Below are positions 42,248 to 50,687 of a DNA stretch of 64,000 nucleotides, piece after piece. The stretch lies in contig JAPETS010000005.1 in NCBI GenBank assembly GCA_026023565.1, positions 248,001 to 312,000 on the forward strand, in the 5' to 3' direction. A program made the position numbers and the translations under genes. Under the pieces are notes generated by a model. The model made no database searches and was not told the origin of the DNA. It saw only the letters and a list, made by a program, of their open reading frames with translations. Each line of letters begins with the position of its first letter. Position 1 is the stretch's first letter. Source of the DNA: Cirrosporium novae-zelandiae (Eukaryota).

Positions 42248-44638
42248 ATGACGGACGATAGAAAACAAAAATCTGAAGGCGGAACCAAAATTACACATGA
42301 ACACCAGTTTCCTGACCTAAAACCTATTAGTCGGAAAAGAAGGCGAGATCATGATGCTGAATCTGCTCGTTCGGCGCCCCCTAAACCTGGATCTTTGTCG
42401 TCATCCCAAACCTCGTCTCTAAAAGAACACGCCAAGCAACTTTACAAGATTCGCAAAGCCCTACCAATTTTTTCCCATGCTAAAGAAATACATGGCGCTC
42501 TTCGCGAACATGATGTAATGTTGTTGGTTGGTGAGACGGGCAGTGGGAAATCTACACAAGTGCCCCAATTTTTGATAAACGAACCATGGTGCAAAATGCA
42601 AAATGTGAAGTTGGATAACTCCCCAGACGGTGCCGACGGAACTACTGTGAAAGTTGGTGGATGCATTGCTATCACACAGCCTAGGAGAGTTGCTGCTACT
42701 TCGCTGGCGCGCAGAGTTGCTGAAGAGATGGGTACGCCACTGGGATCTTCTTCTCCCGCTTCCAAGGTGGGCTATTCGGTTCGTTTTGATACGTCTACCT
42801 CACCATCTACGCAAATCAAATTTTTGACGGAGGGTATGTTGCTACAAGAAATCTTGAAGGATCCATGGTTGAGACAATATAGTGCCATTGTTGTAGATGA
42901 AGTACATGAGAGAGGCGTGAACGTGGATCTTGTATTGGGCTTCTTAAGGAATATGGTGGCTAAGAAAACTAAGGGAAATGGGAGAGGCGGAATACCCTTG
43001 AAAGTGGTAGCGATGAGTGCTACAGCCAATATAGAAGGCCTCCTAACGTTTTTCAACGAAGGATACAAGAAAGAGAAGGCTGAAATTTCTACTAAGAAGA
43101 CGGAAAGTGTTGAAGGATCTGGAGACTCAGAAAATGATAATAGGACTACTAAAGGCCAGGAGAGCAAGGCAGAATTGGACTATGTCTCAGTCTGTCATAT
43201 TGAAGGTAGGCAGTTCCCAGTCAAAACTCACTATACCAAAGAGCCTGTTGCGGAATGGCCAGAAGCAGCATTGAAACGGATACTCGAGATACATATGAAA
43301 GAACCATTACCTGGAGACATTCTTGTCTTTCTTACTGGCCAAGAAACTATCGAGAACCTTGAAAAAGAGATAAACACTCTTGCTAGTGGCATGGATCCTA
43401 AAATACCTAAACTACTTATTCTGCCCCTCTTTGCTGCTCTACCGCAAACTGTACAGCAGCGGATATTTGAACGTACCCCACATCGAACTAGGAAAGTCAT
43501 TCTGGCGACCAATATCGCAGAAACATCCGTTACTGTTCCGGGTGTGCGCTACGTAATTGACTGTGGTAAAAGTAAGATCAAACAATTTCGTGCTCGACTT
43601 GGCCTTGAATCCCTCCTTGTCAAACCAATATCGAAATCCGCTGCCATCCAAAGAAAGGGAAGAGCAGGAAGAGAAGCCCCTGGCGAATGCTACAGAATCT
43701 ACACAGAAAATGATTATCTCGAACTGCAGCAAGCCAACACTCCTGAAATCCTAAGATGTGACCTTAGCCAAGCAATATTGACTATGAAAGCTAGAGGAAT
43801 AGATGAAGTCTGGGAATTTCCTCTCCTCAACCCTCCAAAAATAGAAGTTATTGAGAAAGCATTGTTACAGCTCTTTCATCTCCAAGCTCTAACGGATGAA
43901 GGGAAAATTAGCAAAATCGGGCTTCAAATGGCTAAATTTCCATTATCTCCTCGGCTGGCTAGAATTTTGATTGCGGGAGCAGAATCGGACTGTCTATTGG
44001 AAATCATCGATATAATCTCTTGTTTAAGCGTTGAAAACGTGTTTATACACTCAAAGGACCAGGAAGAGGAGGAGAAAATCGCTTCTGCAAGGCAAGACAT
44101 CTTTCGGCGAGGAAGTGACCATCTAACCCTGCTAGCAACCGTTCAGGGGTTTGCAGGGGAGCTGGGGAATAGGAAAGCATGGGCTGAAGCTCGATTTCTA
44201 TCTCATAGAGCTATGAGAAGTGTTATGGTAGGTTTTAATTTCTTCACGTTCGTTATATTGACATTGCTAATTCTTACCATTGAATAGGATGTCCGCAAGC
44301 AACTCCGCGCTCAATGCATATCGGCCCATCTCACCAACCAGTTTCCAGAAATCCTCAGCGCTTCCTCCGTCTCTTCGGAGCAAGAAATTGCGATTAAGAA
44401 GGCCTTTTTGCGGGGCTATTGTCCGTTCAATACAGCCCGGTTAGTCCCAGATGGAAGCTATCGAACAATGATAGGGAACCAGACGCTTGCAATCCACCCT
44501 TCAAGTGTTCTCAGGGGAATGAAGGCCCCCGCTGTAATGTATAATGAATACGTGTTCACGACCAAGAGTTTTGCTAGAGGTGTAAGTGCCATTGAGCTGA
44601 GCTGGATAGGTGAGATGATGGGTAGTTCAATTGGTTAG
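42248..44638 (+). CDS. DHR2: DEAH-box RNA helicase, Dhr2/Prh1 (DHX33-like)
   Basis: GETGSGKST, TQPRRVAA, DEVHER, SAT, ATNIAETSVT and QRKGRAGR. Intron 44228-44287. Subfamily inferred from the short N-terminus and 'GLESLLVKPISKSAAIQR'. Confidence 0.85.
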
Positions 44639-45085: not shown

Positions 45086-45457
45086 TTAAAAATCCTCCAT
45101 TTTGAAAATATCATAAGTGCATTCCTCATATGGATGGGCTTTCTTTAATTCTAGTATAGCCTTCTTTACAACTTCTCCGCCCACACACATCACCTCAACC
45201 CTTGTTTCTTCCACCGCCTCCGCTTTTCCTACTTGACCAATATCCGGATGCGCGCCCTCGGTCGGTATGAAGTGACCGATCCCAGAAGTTTCGAAGCATA
45301 CATTTTTGTAGGTGGAGTTTGGATGTGCTCCAGCGCCAGCAGAGAAGACGGCGGCTTTACAGGGCGCAAGGTGGGTAGTGGGGACTGTGAAGGCGAATTT
45401 GTAGCGGGGAAGTGAGGTTGGGGAAGAGAAAGTAGGACGGTTTAAAGGAGTGGGCAT
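45086..45457 (-). CDS. Stand-alone YqfO/NIF3-insertion (PII/CutA-like fold) protein
   Basis: Intronless 123 aa. 'YKFAFTVP', 'AGAG..Y..VCF..G.GHF.P.EGA.P.IG', 'EETRVEV' and 'AHPYEE..YD'. Confidence 0.8.
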   Translation of the reverse strand: MPTPLNRPTFSSPTSLPRYKFAFTVPTTHLAPCKAAVFSAGAGAHPNSTYKNVCFETSGIGHFIPTEGAHPDIGQVGKAEAVEETRVEVMCVGGEVVKKAILELKKAHPYEECTYDIFKMEDF

Positions 45458-46053
45458 TTTGAATCAGATTATAGTTATCAATGATAATGCGTTATATGGC
45501 TGCTTGTTTTCCTAGTTAATTTTGTGGTTGTGGTTGTGGTTGTGGGAAAAGGTGGGGTCATTAACTGAGGCGGTCGGAGAAGATAAAGCAAATTCATTCT
45601 AGATACATAGCGATAGTGATATGAAAGTATAAGTACATGAAATGATACATAAAAATTTCCATACTTATAGTTCATCTTTCCTCAACCCCTTGAAAATATT
45701 AAGATAATATGATTTGTATTGTTGATTTAAGAGATTGAAAGATTTTACCATGACTCACTACTAGTGATGTCATACCCACCATCATTTTCATCCTCCATAC
45801 GTTCGAATGTACAGGAACAGAAGTATGTAGATATAAATCCAAAATACCAACCTTTAGAACTCCCTATGTTACCAATCAACATTCTAATATTACATAGATC
45901 CATATAGCTTAGATTATTTAAATAGCCCCCCCCCCCCCCCGGGGCCTCTGCATCAAAACGACATTTCTCCGCGCCAATCTTAGTCGGCTCGCAGGACGAG
46001 TATCGCATCTCCTCCTCCGCCGCACTGGCCCCCGCTCTCTTACAACCGCCAAA

Positions 46054-47427
46054 ATGACTGTCGCAAACACCTCTGAAGCCCACAATGGGAATTCTGGATC
46101 TTCTTCAAAACCGCACGTACAGTTTGATACGCAAATCCTTCGTATCAACCCCCACGATGTCGGAAATATCATCCACACGGACCCAACCGTGCCCTTTCTG
46201 TCAGGCTGGACCCTCACACCTCCGTCTCCACCTACACCCTCCTACAAATCTCTAAACACAGCGGCGCAATCACTCCGCGAAACCTCGATCTCGCTGGCAT
46301 TCCCCACCGAAACCGTCTACGGACTCGCGGCATCCGCTCTCTCCACCTCCGCGGTCCAGAACATCTTCGATACGAAAAACAGACCCGCCGACAACCCCCT
46401 AATCGTGCATATCCACTCCCTCCCTCAGCTAATGGACCTGCTAAAACCTCACGGCCTCCCTAAAATCTACTCGCCTCTAATCGACCGCTTTTGGCCCGGT
46501 CCTCTCACAATCATTCTACCGCTCCCTTCGACCTCACCATTAAGCCCCCTCACGACCGCCGGCCTCCACACCTTCGGAGCCCGCATGCCATCCTCCCTGC
46601 TCTCGCTGCTCCTCCTAAAACTCACTAACGTTCCCCTCGCCGCCCCCTCAGCTAACACCTCCACAAAACCCTCCCCCACAACCGCGGGTCACGTCTACCA
46701 CGACCTACACGGCAAGATAAAATACATCCTCGAAGATACCACGTCCCCTAGCTGCCCCGTCGGTGTCGAAAGCACCGTCGTAGATGGAACGTGCAACCCC
46801 CCTGCGATACTGCGCCCCGGGGGTGTGAGCCTTGAACAAATCCAGCAAGTACCTGGCTGGGAAAGCACCGTCATCGGGTACAAAGACAAGGCGCTGGAAC
46901 AAAACGAGGTCGCACGAGCACCGGGGATGAAATATAGGCATTATGCACCTAGGGCACGGGTTATCCTGTTTTCATCCGAATGCCCGCAGCCGCAGCTACG
47001 CGATTTGCTCCCATTTCTTCTATTATCATCACCATCATCACCATCGCTAGTCTCAGCAGAAGAGAACATAAAAGATACCATCGGCATTGGCATCATTCGC
47101 ACTCACGCCTGGACTCCCCTGATCTCCTCTCCCTCTTCAAAAATAGAGCCATCAACCACTGCTAACGCTGACATCCCTCCTACGATTCCAATATCATCCT
47201 ACGCTACAGACATCTCCATAGAGTCGATAATATCTCTAAAAGTCCACGATATCTGGTTGGGCCCTAAAGCCGCGAGTGTGGCGCATGGGCTGTTTTCTGC
47301 ACTAAGGGCATTGGATGACTACGAAGCAAGTGTGATTTTTGTGGAGGGGATTAAAGAAGATGAGGGGCCAGTTGCGGCGGCGGTGATGAATCGTTTGAGG
47401 AAGGCGAGCGAGAGGGAGATTATGTAG
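46054..47427 (+). CDS. SUA5: Threonylcarbamoyl-AMP synthase (t6A pathway)
   Basis: AFPTETVYGLA, KNRPADNPLIVH, FWPGPLT, APSANTS, GVESTVVD, APGMKYRHYAP and C-terminal AVMNRLRKA. See findings for an upstream in-frame ACG extension. Confidence 0.96.
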   Translation: MTVANTSEAHNGNSGSSSKPHVQFDTQILRINPHDVGNIIHTDPTVPFLSGWTLTPPSPPTPSYKSLNTAAQSLRETSISLAFPTETVYGLAASALSTSAVQNIFDTKNRPADNPLIVHIHSLPQLMDLLKPHGLPKIYSPLIDRFWPGPLTIILPLPSTSPLSPLTTAGLHTFGARMPSSLLSLLLLKLTNVPLAAPSANTSTKPSPTTAGHVYHDLHGKIKYILEDTTSPSCPVGVESTVVDGTCNPPAILRPGGVSLEQIQQVPGWESTVIGYKDKALEQNEVARAPGMKYRHYAPRARVILFSSECPQPQLRDLLPFLLLSSPSSPSLVSAEENIKDTIGIGIIRTHAWTPLISSPSSKIEPSTTANADIPPTIPISSYATDISIESIISLKVHDIWLGPKAASVAHGLFSALRALDDYEASVIFVEGIKEDEGPVAAAVMNRLRKASEREIM

Positions 47428-47640: not shown

Positions 47641-50600
47641 CTACCAGATTCTTTTTCCCCACATAGCATACCTGTTAACCGGCCCAAACCTATCCGCCTT
47701 GCCCTCGGCCTTGGCTTCCTTTTCTCGCCCTCTGACCTCCCTCTCCCTCATCCTTCTCGCTCCCTCCTCATCATCTGCATAAATCCACCTTCTTTTATCC
47801 TCATCCACTTCCACGACCGCCCCAATTCCCATCCTTCTACCTTCCGCATGATAATGCACACGTTCTCGTTCCTTCATACCACGGTATCTATTGCGTGCGT
47901 ACGCAAGCAGACACATGCCAAGGAGGAGCTTGAGGGCTAAGAGTACGAGGTATAGGAGGAGAAAGAAGACGAGCATGGTAAGTAGCGCGATTAGGTCATC
48001 CGTACTCCAAGTGCGCCAGGCTGAGAGCCACGATGCGGAGTTGGTGGTAGGATCGGTGCCGGCGCCGAAGGAGGAGCGGCCTAATGCACGCCGAAATATG
48101 GTGTCAATGTGTTGAAGAGCAGCAGTTGTGGCAGGCGAGGTGGATGGAGAAACTTCGGAAACGGAGAGAGAGGTTGCAGTTGAGGGGATTGGGATCGGGA
48201 CATGCGTGGCGAGGAACATGTGGTATGTTTGAAGGGAAGCTCGGATGAAGAGACAGGAGAGGGGAATGATAGGAAGGCCGAGGCGGCGAGTGAGGTTGGG
48301 GTCGGCGAAGGCGTTAGAATAGTAATCTTTTGTGAGGACATCCAGGAAGCGACCGTATATAGCAGGTTTCGTGTTGTTGAATTTGGTGATATATTGGTGT
48401 TTGAGCCAGTCTACAAGCACTTCACTGCCAAGGACGAGAACAAAAGGTCCAATTATAGCGCTACTCCAATCAGGTAGGACGGTGAAACTTTTAGGAAGGA
48501 TGGTAGGTCCGTGATGTTGAGTATTTGACGAATCGGAGAATAAATCGGGGTGAGAAGAGGTCAGACTAAGGCCACCTGTTTCTACAATATTTCGAGACGC
48601 GATAATTGTAAGCATTAGCCAAAGTTGAAACCGTTCAACTATATCGGCGCATGTAATTTGGAAGAGATTTTCCTTCTCAAATTTCTTGAATACTGTAGAT
48701 TTGATCTCCACAAACTGGTTTGACATAAGCAGCGTAAGTAGAGCATTCGAGTAGGAATTCACTGCCACGTTGAGGGTAATGACTTGATAGAATAGGGCTG
48801 TAGCATGGAGGACGTTGTAGACAAGTGCAAGTCCAAAAAGCCATAAAGGTCTAAAAACTTTACTTCTACCGTTAGGTTTTCGTTCGAGAGCTTCTTTTGA
48901 AAACAGGCATTCGAGCACATCTTGTCCGAGAGCTGAGAATAGGCGATCGCCAACCTAGTAACAAGTTAGAGTTGCTACTTTGAAATTATGGATATACGCA
49001 CCTCAAGCACACTATATATGACATATAGTTTGATTGCTGCCTGACCACGGATTCCGTGATACATCCGACTAGCATCAAAACATAGCAGGATAGCACAACT
49101 CAACAATATCAGAGCCCCTTTCAGAAGATCCGCTTTATGGTCGGGGAGAAGGCCAGATGGCATAGATTTCGTCCTACGATGCTTTGAAAATGAACTCCAT
49201 CGACGCTTACTGTCAGCTTCTGGGATTGTATACTCTACTTCACGGTTCGTTGGTTTTTCTGTACGCATGCGTGGCGTGTGTTGACCGGAAGAATCAGAAA
49301 TTGCAGAAGGTGCTGTCTGAGACTGAGCTTCACCCTGGGTAGAAGTCTTCGGTGCTATTACACTGCTACCTGTTCTTCGCGTCCGAGCCCTTTCCCAAAC
49401 CCGATATATACCAGCAGACATGAACGAATAAAAGAATTGGATCTCAAGACTGAGATTTCGGCCCCAGGACTGCAAAAGGATCCAGAGAGCTTTGAAAAAC
49501 CGTAAAGGAAGTATCGTAAATGTATAAAGCCAAGTGTCAAGGCAGGCAAACGCTCCGAAACATAACACTTGTTCTAATTCCCATGGAAGACTGATAAAAC
49601 TCCATAAACGTTCAAGCTTTACCTGGTTGGACTCGTAAGGAAAGTCACTAGTCGCTGATCGGTGGATGTAAAGGGGGGACGGTCGATCTGAGGATAACTC
49701 AAGTTGTAGGTATGTAGGGAAAGATAGGGGGGGCAACGGGATCGAAGTAGGCATAGGAGACGGCAATGGATCAGGAACTAGCGGTTTCACTCCAACCTTT
49801 GTACTATCCAAATCAAGAGGCGCAGGGACTGGACGGATACCCTTTTGAGTCAACAGAGGGCCAGCAGCAAAACTGTTTGGCCGAGAAGATGACTGCTTTC
49901 TTCTTATCGGTGGAGGAGTCGAAACAGTCCGCGACAAATGGCGAGGACGTGATGCCTCCGGATGGTTTTTGTGCTTTTCATGACCGAGAAGAGTTTGCGA
50001 AACAGCATCCAGATCATCTAATATACGGTCCCTACCCTGCAGGCGGAGCTCACTTGATTTCGTATGAAGGTTCTCTGATTTTCCGCCCCTAACATCAGCT
50101 GAAGACCGGCTCTGATTTGTGCTCTGACCAGTTGTCAATGTTTGAGAGTTAATTTCTGCTCGAGGATCTGGATCTGGGGACGCTACTCGTACTGGGATGG
50201 AATTAGGTGAAGTAGTAAGCTCCTGTATTTGAGCTGGCGAAAGTTTGAGAATTTTTTCCTTCTCTGTAGACTTGGATGCTCGTCGCTGATGGGAGCTTCT
50301 TCGACTGGCATTCTGGCACTGGGGAACCTCGATCATGTTTTCATCCACGTCTGTTAAGGCACACCCGGTCGATACCGAGGATTTTCTCAAGTCATGTTGA
50401 TCCATTTCTTCATTTACATAATCCCCATTTATAGAATTGGTATTGTTTGTAATGTCTCCATCAGTCTTTCTGCTCTCGGTACCGTCCTCGGGACACTCAA
50501 GGGGGTCCAAATGAGGGGACAGCGAGGGAGAAGGTAACTGATCATTAGGCTGAAACTGAGCTCTCCCGAGGAGTCCATTCAAAATTTCCGGGTTCGCCTT

Positions 50601-50687
50601 TTCATCATTATCATTGGTGTTCAAAGAATCACGAAAGGCCTTTGTAAGGTCACCGAAGACATTGTTGACAACTTGGATCTGTGCCAT
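47641..50687 (-). CDS. EMP65: ER membrane protein TAPT1/Emp65 (DUF747)
   Basis: Exons 50687-49002 and 48954-47641. 'DASRMYHGIRGQAAIKLYVIY', 'LLMSNQFVEIKSTVFKKFEKENLFQ', 'DIVERF' and 'VDWLKH.YITKFN'. Confidence 0.92.

What the first reader, a model, noticed from the sequence alone, without database searches (positions are those of the whole stretch)
45958..46056. Probable non-AUG (ACG) initiation adding a mitochondrial presequence to Sua5
Seen: the frame is open upstream of the SUA5 ATG (46054) back to a TAA at 45919-45921, with no ATG in it. An in-frame ACG at 45958 has context ATCAAA-ACG, like the GCCAAA-ATG context of the main start. It would add 32 aa, (M)TFLRANLSRLAGRVSHLLLRRTGPRSLTTAK: 6 Arg, 1 Lys, no acidic residues, and an R-S-L|T cleavage-like site. 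Known: Sua5 supplies both cytosolic and mitochondrial t6A synthesis, yeast makes both isoforms from alternative AUGs, and near-cognate starts create presequences in yeast ALA1 (ACG) and GRS1 (UUG). Inference: this fungus dual-targets Sua5 by leaky ACG initiation, which gene callers would miss.
Basis: partly seen in the sequence, partly recalled or inferred. Interest (0 to 1): 0.8.

Follow-up and report, generated by a model that had tools for sequence, protein, structure and literature searches.

The report
Likely non-AUG mitochondrial leader on Sua5
A fungal gene for the tRNA-modification enzyme Sua5 carries, just upstream of its annotated start, an ATG-less in-frame stretch that looks like a mitochondrial import signal and probably starts at an ACG codon; this is a known trick, apparently not yet reported for this enzyme.

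Summary
The SUA5 frame is open from TAA 45919-45921 to ATG 46054, holds no ATG, and has an in-frame ACG at 45958 with A at -3 to -1.

Openness alone means little: 45-59% of composition-matched shuffles are open. The encoded peptide is what stands out. It has 7 basic and 0 acidic residues and a strongly amphipathic helix, matched by 0.4-4% of shuffles and by none of 23 other ORF leaders in the window.

About a quarter of fungal Sua5 gene models carry an AUG-started, presequence-like extension at this position. A Penicillium clade keeps a conserved in-frame extension with no internal Met, and NCBI models omit it.

The best reading (about 0.58) is leaky near-cognate initiation, most likely at ACG 45958, which makes a minor mitochondrial isoform. 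ATG 46054 makes the cytosolic one.

Not shown:
- The transcription start; no RNA run was listed.
- Any translation evidence.
- Conservation of the ACG; no protein at or above about 50% identity exists in the libraries searched.

Rivals are a spliced upstream AUG micro-exon, a non-functional leader and a base-call error. This is a new member of a known kind (dual targeting by a near-cognate start), of moderate interest.

The parts
45832..45837 (+). TATAAA, a TATA-like element 121 nt upstream of the ACG. A second A/T-rich TATA-like stretch lies at 45915-45924.
   Evidence: Read. Its role is inferred. If the first is used, the transcript should include the ACG. If the second is used, the transcription start could fall at or beyond the ACG.
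45866..45907 (+). Last upstream ATG in any frame, heading a 13-codon uORF in the +1 frame. From 45869 to 46053 there is no ATG.
45919..45921 (+). In-frame TAA that closes the SUA5 frame upstream.
45926..45940 (+). C15 homopolymer at the sharp switch from AT-rich spacer (C 15%) to C-rich sequence (C 45%).
   Evidence: All three frames have a stop and no Met codon just before it. An error in the run length therefore cannot connect a contiguous upstream ATG.
45952..45957 (+). ATC AAA (Ile-Lys codons), forming the -6 to -1 context of the ACG. ATC is itself a weak in-frame near-cognate codon.
   Evidence: An invariant Ile-Lys pair also precedes the conserved block of the Penicillium extensions.
45958..45960 (+). 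ACG, the candidate near-cognate start of the mitochondrial isoform.
   Evidence: In frame, with A at -3, -2 and -1. Context score 0.80 against -1.03 (ATA 45922) and -1.17 (ATC 45952). Its use is inferred, not shown.
45958..46053 (+). 32-codon presequence-like extension.
   Evidence: 7 basic and 0 acidic residues, hydrophobic moment 0.53. Codon-usage log-likelihood favours this frame by 2.2 nats over the other two.
46054..47427 (+). SUA5 coding sequence as annotated (457 aa, stop included), taken as the start of the cytosolic isoform.
   Evidence: PF01300 at 1.9e-47 and PF03481 at 1.1e-26. The database protein P0002 starts here.
45823..45828 (+). GTATGT, the only strict splice-donor match in the spacer. 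It belongs to the rival reading.
   Evidence: With ATG 45807 and the AG at 45924-45925 it would give an in-frame 103-nt intron.

Best explanation
One SUA5 mRNA yields two proteins by leaky scanning. A minority of scanning ribosomes start at a near-cognate codon, most likely ACG 45958 in its AAA context. This adds 32 residues that form a positively charged amphipathic mitochondrial presequence. That isoform would be imported to supply threonylcarbamoyl-AMP for t6A on mitochondrial tRNAs, and the presequence would be cleaved close to the cytosolic Met.

Most ribosomes pass the ACG. They meet no ATG in any frame for 96 nt and start at ATG 46054, giving the cytosolic enzyme.

Shown:
- The sequence anatomy.
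- The presequence-like character, which exceeds composition-matched chance.
- Equivalent extensions in orthologues.

Inferred:
- A transcription start upstream of 45958.
- Initiation at the ACG.
- Import and cleavage.
For: 1. Anatomy. The frame is open with no ATG, ACG has A at -3 to -1, and the leader from 45869 to 46053 is ATG-free.

2. Peptide character. It has 7 basic and 0 acidic residues and a hydrophobic moment of 0.53. Only 0.4-4.2% of 20,000 shuffles reach this, and 0 of 23 other ORF leaders in the window do.

3. Need. The AUG form has an ordinary N-terminus with 2 basic and 2 acidic residues.

4. Orthologues.
- Of 118 classifiable homologue models out of 133 examined, 27 have a Met, then at least 20 residues, then a second Met at the cytosolic position.
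- 20 of those 27 are net at least +5 with at most 1 acidic residue, against 2 of 104 other models.
- Among representatives of 50% clusters, 17 of 49 have at least 17 residues upstream.
- Locus L001 shows the two-AUG form, with C at -3 of the first AUG and A at -3 of the second.

5. AUG-less extensions elsewhere, from 31 members of four Penicillium clusters.
- 11 are calls that start with Leu and run 30-50 codons through an extension without an internal Met.
- 5 are Logan or ENA calls with Met at a site where sister calls read Leu or Val. This implies TTG or GTG there.
- 13, including the NCBI models of five named species, start at the cytosolic Met.
- The remaining two are an NCBI model with a different four-residue start (P0122) and a fragment.
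- The extension is 13/20 to 24/27 identical among four of them, against 79-97% for the rest of the protein.
- L002 has 48 open codons without ATG.

6. Literature.
- Yeast Sua5 is dual-targeted from two in-frame AUGs (PMC4615747 and PMC5951830, passages).
- Swaps between weak AUG and near-cognate starts are described for fungal tRNA synthetases (PMC7049704, passages).
- ACG with A at -3 starts mitochondrial AlaRS in yeasts (PMC3245939, passages).

7. Codon usage favours the SUA5 frame by 2.2 nats. This is within the range of true coding windows (mean 1.1, sd 2.3).
Against: - There is no transcript or translation evidence of any kind.
- A TATA-like stretch at 45915-45924 and the C15 tract just upstream could place the transcription start at or beyond the ACG. 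This is inference.
- Openness is not significant. The +1 frame is open too.
- The crude context matrix, built from 23 ORFs, ranks the ACG only 4th of 20 near-cognate sites in all frames. Its score of 0.80 is below the main ATG's 1.71.
- There is no downstream RNA hairpin (z = 0.27).
- No close relative exists to test conservation. The protein is its own representative at 50% clustering, and the best other hit is 48-50% identical.
- The L002 extension is not significant on its own; 11.8% of shuffles match it.
- I could not see Penicillium DNA, so the start codon there is unknown.
- In Cryptococcus neoformans, deleting the Sua5 presequence or QRI7 gave no phenotype (PMC10826353, passages). A mitochondrial isoform is therefore not obligatory in every fungus.
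- The shuffle metrics were chosen after seeing the peptide.
Confidence: 0.58

Rival explanations
1. The presequence is real but is translated from an upstream AUG in a small 5' exon. ATG 45807 would be joined through the GTATGT donor at 45823 to the AG at 45924-45925 (a 103-nt intron) or to a later AG. Initiation would then be conventional.
For: - One search finds one strict donor, one CTRAY branch-like site (45884) and six in-frame ATG/donor/acceptor combinations, three of them using the strict donor.
- The NCBI model of one Penicillium species (P0122) replaces the residues before the conserved block with a different four-residue start. That may reflect a predicted splice.
Against: - Three AGs (45897, 45907, 45912) lie between the branch-like site and the AG at 45925 and would normally be used first. 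They lead to stops.
- The frame of the 45925 option depends on the exact length of the C15 run.
- The pyrimidine run lies after that acceptor, not before it.
- In L001 the extension is contiguous with the coding sequence.
- One in three random joins is in frame.
Confidence: 0.1
2. The stretch is an untranslated C-rich 5' leader that resembles a presequence by chance. In this fungus Sua5 either does not enter mitochondria or enters by other means.
For: - Openness is expected by chance (45-59%).
- C-rich sequence favours Arg, Pro, Leu, Ser and Ala codons and disfavours Asp and Glu.
- The mitochondrial role of Sua5 is dispensable in C. neoformans (PMC10826353).
- Lin et al. raise the possibility that cytoplasmic TC-AMP enters mitochondria (PMC5951830, passage).
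- There is no expression evidence.
Against: - The joint peptide features are reached by only 0.4-4.2% of shuffles and by 0 of 23 other leaders.
- The stretch lies exactly where orthologues carry presequences.
- A Penicillium clade conserves an AUG-less extension at the amino-acid level.
Confidence: 0.2
3. Near-cognate initiation is real but uses another codon, either ATC 45952 (which would add 34 residues) or ATA 45922.
For: - Both are in frame.
- The Ile codon of an invariant Ile-Lys pair heads the conserved block in Penicillium, so an AUH start there is conceivable.
Against: - Both have T at -3 and low context scores of -1.17 and -1.03.
- From recall (Wei et al. 2013, not held), AUC is among the weakest near-cognate starts.
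- A start at the ATA would require translating four consecutive Pro codons, and the ATA directly follows the stop.
Confidence: 0.07
4. Base-call or strain artefact: the organism really has ATG at 45958, so this is an ordinary two-AUG SUA5.
For: A single C-to-T difference would give ATG. The two-AUG layout is common in orthologues.
Against: - Nothing indicates an error at this base.
- AUG-less extensions occur independently in other fungi.
- This could not be tested because no reads were available.
Confidence: 0.03

Closest known systems
Saccharomyces cerevisiae SUA5 (Thiaville et al. 2014, as described in PMC4615747 and PMC5951830; passages)
   Same: It is the same enzyme with the same logic. 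The upstream in-frame start adds a mitochondrial signal, and the downstream AUG gives the cytosolic form.
   Different: Yeast uses two AUGs only about ten codons apart. Here the upstream start has no AUG and the extension is 32 codons.
Yeast ALA1 (two ACG codons), GRS1 (non-AUG) and Vanderwaltozyma ALA2 ACG(-23) (PMC3245939, passages)
   Same: A near-cognate ACG with A at -3 starts an acid-free mitochondrial presequence upstream of the cytosolic AUG.
   Different: The enzyme family differs (tRNA synthetases). Those cases were tested by mutation and localisation, and this one was not. ALA1 has two consecutive ACGs, whereas here there is one.
Cryptococcus LeuRS (ACG-AUU) and ArgRS (AUU), 'DualNCC' genes (PMC7049704, passages)
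   Same: A strong-context near-cognate start precedes a predicted presequence. The paper notes repeated swaps between weak AUG and near-cognate starts across fungi.
   Different: Those are supported by ribosome profiling and mapped transcription starts. Sua5 is absent from the main text and from the one supplement held.
Neurospora cpc-1 N-terminal extension from conserved near-cognate codons, including an ACG (PMC5487733, passages)
   Same: It shows that Pezizomycotina use ACG starts in good context to extend a main ORF, and that annotation misses them.
   Different: That extension is not a targeting signal, and conservation was shown across 100 species.

Membership tests
Sua5/TsaC2 threonylcarbamoyl-AMP synthase | YrdC-like catalytic domain (PF01300) | tested here: met
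   E = 1.9e-47, residues 113-288 of the extended protein.
Sua5/TsaC2 threonylcarbamoyl-AMP synthase | Sua5 C-terminal domain (PF03481) | tested here: met
   E = 1.1e-26. The best hits are fungal proteins that their sources name Sua5 or threonylcarbamoyl-AMP synthase.
Near-cognate-initiated dual-targeted genes (DualNCC) | In-frame upstream stretch with no stop and no AUG between the near-cognate codon and the main AUG, and no out-of-frame AUG between them | tested here: met
Near-cognate-initiated dual-targeted genes (DualNCC) | Near-cognate codon in a favourable context (purine at -3) | tested here: met
   A at -3, -2 and -1. It is the best of the three in-frame candidates but only 4th of 20 sites in all frames by a crude matrix.
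Near-cognate-initiated dual-targeted genes (DualNCC) | Extension predicted to be a mitochondrial presequence | tested here: inconclusive
   Simple measures fit. MitoFates and TargetP were not available.
Near-cognate-initiated dual-targeted genes (DualNCC) | Transcription start upstream of the near-cognate codon | not testable with these tools
   No read data were available to map the transcription start.
Near-cognate-initiated dual-targeted genes (DualNCC) | Initiation at the near-cognate codon shown by profiling, proteomics or mutation | not testable with these tools
   There are no data for this organism.
Near-cognate-initiated dual-targeted genes (DualNCC) | Extension and start codon conserved in relatives | tested here: inconclusive
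   No relative above about 50% identity exists. Distant orthologues carry AUG-started or AUG-less extensions at the same place.
Two-AUG dual targeting, as in yeast SUA5 | Upstream in-frame AUG contiguous with the ORF | tested here: not met
   There is no Met codon after the last stop in any of the three frames before the C15 run.

The most novel reading that the evidence does not exclude
Non-AUG initiation of the mitochondrial Sua5 isoform may be a recurrent state in Pezizomycotina and not a private quirk of this fungus. It would occur in this lineage, the L002 lineage and a whole Penicillium clade, reached by repeated swaps between weak AUG and near-cognate starts, with a conserved Ile-Lys-coding context directly before the start. 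If so, most 'short' Sua5 gene models in public fungal genomes (89 of 118 classifiable here) may lack their true mitochondrial N-terminus.
Probability: 0.4. Interest if true: 0.55.

Novelty: new member of a known kind. Interest (0 to 1): 0.4.

Why it matters
Sua5 makes the intermediate for t6A, a tRNA modification needed in both the cytosol and mitochondria.

If the mitochondrial form is made from a non-AUG codon, standard annotation misses it. Localisation predictions for this enzyme in many fungi would then be wrong, and the supply of t6A to mitochondria would depend on how strictly start codons are selected.

There is a curious twist. Loss of t6A itself loosens start-codon selection, since sua5 mutants initiate at non-AUG codons (PMC4615747, passage). 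A non-AUG-started Sua5 isoform could therefore be part of a feedback loop. That idea is speculation.

Tried and rejected
- Whole genome: none is held for this window. A second Sua5 paralogue and Qri7 could not be looked for.
- Earlier findings: none near this place or like this sequence. Word searches gave unrelated Sua5 notes and the known yeast HFA1 case.
- Metagenome scan: 80 loci were kept of 582. I checked GC for 11 and read only L001 and L002 in detail. I took the rest to be prokaryotic from identity and coverage, without checking.
- Prokaryote genome scan: all 80 of 80 titles are prokaryotic, so it was of no use.
- Search for short N-terminal fragments: the nine I read looked like yeast or bacterial fragments, with no close relative. 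Four of them showed the two-Met layout.
- Downstream RNA hairpin: none (z = 0.27).
- Homopolymer error linking a contiguous upstream ATG: excluded.
- Significance of the visible likeness between the window's extension and the Penicillium extensions (an Ile-Lys pair and a few further residues): not tested.
- Wei et al. 2013 on Neurospora start-codon stringency: not held. Its ranking of near-cognate codons is recalled.
- Supplements of PMC7049704: one file is held, with no Sua5 term in it. Other supplements I could not see might list Sua5.
- Literature searches: none turned up a report of non-AUG initiation of SUA5 itself. In one search all 25 listed papers had 0 occurrences of 'sua5'. In one search the papers holding all three terms were seen as listings only, except PMC4615747, where 'non-AUG' refers to the mutant phenotype.

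Full report
WHAT IS THERE

The window holds a single-exon SUA5 gene on the + strand, from ATG 46054 to a stop at 47425-47427. It has the YrdC-like domain (PF01300, 1.9e-47) and the Sua5 C-terminal domain (PF03481, 1.1e-26).

Upstream, the same frame stays open for 44 codons back to TAA 45919-45921 and contains no ATG. The in-frame near-cognate codons in that stretch are ATA 45922, ATC 45952 and ACG 45958. The ACG is 32 codons from the ATG and is preceded by AAA, as is the ATG. No ATG in any frame lies between 45869 and 46053. The last upstream ATG (45866) heads a 13-codon uORF in another frame.

A C15 run (45926-45940) marks a sharp change in composition. The spacer before it is AT-rich (C 15%, GC about 0.3). 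The sequence after it is C-rich (C 45%, GC 0.55-0.60), like the coding sequence. All three frames have a stop just before the run, with no Met codon after that stop. A homopolymer length error therefore cannot bring in a contiguous upstream ATG.

IS IT MORE THAN CHANCE?

The open frame is not. 59% (96 nt) or 45% (132 nt) of 20,000 dinucleotide-preserving shuffles are open, and the +1 frame of the same stretch is open too.

What is unusual is the encoded peptide, which has 7 basic and no acidic residues and a hydrophobic moment of 0.53.
- Open plus acid-free plus at least 7 basic occurs in 4.2% of shuffles. With the moment added it is 0.76%. For 132 nt the figures are 1.8% and 0.37%.
- I chose these measures after seeing the peptide, so they are indicative only.
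- As an empirical control, none of the 23 other ATG-ORFs of at least 180 aa in the window has such an upstream stretch.
- Codon usage favours the SUA5 frame over the other two by 2.2 nats. This lies within the spread of true 32-codon windows of the gene (mean 1.1, sd 2.3) and is weak evidence.
- No RNA structure stands out (z = 0.27).

RELATIVES

The protein has no close relative in the libraries.
- The best non-self hits are 48-50% identical.
- It is its own representative at 50% clustering among 1.84 billion representatives.
- Conservation of the ACG therefore cannot be tested.

At family level the picture is informative.
- I examined 133 homologues and could classify 118. Of these, 89 start near the cytosolic Met, 27 have a Met followed by at least 20 residues and then the cytosolic Met, and 2 start with a non-Met residue.
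- The first 32 residues of 20 of the 27 long forms are net at least +5 with at most one acidic residue. Only 2 of 104 other models are like that.
- The window's extension (7 basic, 0 acidic) falls with the long forms. Its AUG-form N-terminus (2 basic, 2 acidic) falls with the others.
- Among cluster representatives whose alignment reaches the N-terminal region, 17 of 49 have at least 17 residues upstream.
- The fungal metagenome locus L001 shows the two-AUG layout in DNA. The first AUG has C at -3 and the second has A at -3, as expected for leaky scanning.

AUG-LESS EXTENSIONS ELSEWHERE

A search with the N-terminus of P0115 found four Penicillium-type proteins with an extension. The other 20 of the 24 hits start at the cytosolic Met.

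Their four 90% clusters hold 31 members.
- 11 are calls that begin with Leu and run 30-50 codons through the extension without an internal Met.
- 5 are Logan or ENA calls beginning with Met at a site where sister sequences read Leu or Val. This implies a TTG or GTG chosen by a prokaryotic gene caller.
- 1 is an NCBI model with a different four-residue start.
- 13 start at the cytosolic Met, among them the NCBI models of P. rolfsii, P. ochrochloron, P. daleae, P. brasilianum and P. cataractarum.
- 1 is a fragment.

The last 20-27 residues of the extension are 13/20 to 24/27 identical among four of these proteins, while the rest of the protein is 79-97% identical. The frame is thus kept and the peptide conserved without an AUG.

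Residues upstream of an invariant Ile-Lys pair vary, and residues after it are conserved. The window also has Ile-Lys codons (ATC AAA) directly before its ACG. I could not see Penicillium DNA, so whether the codon after Ile-Lys there is a near-cognate start remains a prediction. I did not test whether the likeness to the window's extension exceeds chance.

Locus L002, a second fungal contig, has 48 open codons without an ATG and a CTG with A at -3 and G at +4. Its peptide is not significant on its own, since 11.8% of shuffles match it.

HOW IT MOST LIKELY WORKS

The best reading is leaky scanning on one mRNA.
- A minority of ribosomes start at ACG 45958 and make a precursor with a 32-residue presequence.
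- The rest go on, meet no other ATG, and start at 46054.
- ACG is preferred over ATC and ATA because both of those have T at -3 and low context scores.
- AAA before a non-AUG start fits the 'AAR' context reported as most favourable in yeast (PMC3245939, passage).
- By my crude matrix the ACG context (0.80) is below that of the main ATG (1.71) and is only 4th of 20 near-cognate sites in all frames.

The main gap is the transcription start. A TATAAA at 45832-45837 would put the start upstream of the ACG. An A/T-rich TATA-like stretch at 45915-45924, together with the C15 tract, could put it at or past the ACG. This is inference.

RIVALS

- A spliced micro-exon is possible in silico. The only strict donor (GTATGT, 45823) with ATG 45807 and the AG at 45924-45925 gives an in-frame 103-nt intron, and five other in-frame combinations exist. 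Against it, three AGs lie between the only branch-like site (45884) and that acceptor, and they lead to stops. The frame also depends on the C15 length.
- A non-functional leader cannot be excluded. The mitochondrial role of Sua5 is dispensable in Cryptococcus neoformans (PMC10826353, passages). Import of TC-AMP has also been raised as a possibility (PMC5951830, passage).
- A base error turning ATG into ACG could not be checked.

COMPARISON WITH WHAT IS KNOWN

- Yeast Sua5 is dual-targeted from two in-frame AUGs (PMC4615747 and PMC5951830, passages).
- Near-cognate starts that add presequences are established for ALA1, GRS1 and Vanderwaltozyma ALA2 (PMC3245939).
- They are also established for Cryptococcus LeuRS and ArgRS. 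That paper notes repeated swaps between weak AUG and near-cognate starts (PMC7049704).
- Pezizomycotina use conserved ACG starts in cpc-1 (PMC5487733).
- My searches and the passages read turned up no report of a non-AUG start for SUA5.

This is therefore a new member of a known kind. It is plausible and testable but not demonstrated.

WHAT COULD NOT BE DONE

- No whole genome was held.
- No read data for this organism were available.
- No DNA of close relatives or of the Penicillium genomes could be read.
- No dedicated targeting predictor was available.

Noticed in passing
window 47641-48954 (-) and 48975-50687 (-): Two adjacent minus-strand ORFs both match DUF747 (PF05346). The downstream one matches profile positions 51-314 and the upstream one positions 3-51. 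They are probably one membrane-protein gene split by a short intron or a frameshift near 48955-48975. It is convergent with SUA5.
   Followed up: partly
window 45086-45463 (-): A 125-codon ORF with no Pfam match lies divergent from SUA5. The two genes share a spacer of about 590 bp that is AT-rich and dense in short uORFs; 12 ATGs lie between 45481 and 45866.
   Followed up: partly
window 45524-45546: A short hexamer microsatellite (about four copies of a GTGGTT unit) lies in the spacer between the two divergent genes.
   Followed up: no
window 45926-45944: A C15 run is followed directly by four G. It sits exactly at the boundary between the AT-rich spacer and the C-rich leader. It could be a core-promoter pyrimidine tract, and its length is prone to sequencing error.
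   Followed up: partly
window 42248-44287 (+), continuing to 44638: A DEAH/HA2-type helicase gene (DEAD, Helicase_C, HA2_N and HA2_C domains) lies upstream. The open frame continues in a second piece at 44288-44638.
   Followed up: no
proteins P0258, P0259, P0268, P0273, P0274, P0279 (NCBI Penicillium models): Public gene models of Sua5 in several Penicillium species start at the cytosolic Met. Sister sequences at or above 90% identity show a conserved in-frame upstream extension without Met. The annotation is probably missing a mitochondrial isoform across that clade.
   Followed up: partly
protein P0285 (1465 aa): One representative has the Sua5 region at residues 1026-1463 of a 1465-residue protein. 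It is either a fusion or a merged gene model.
   Followed up: no
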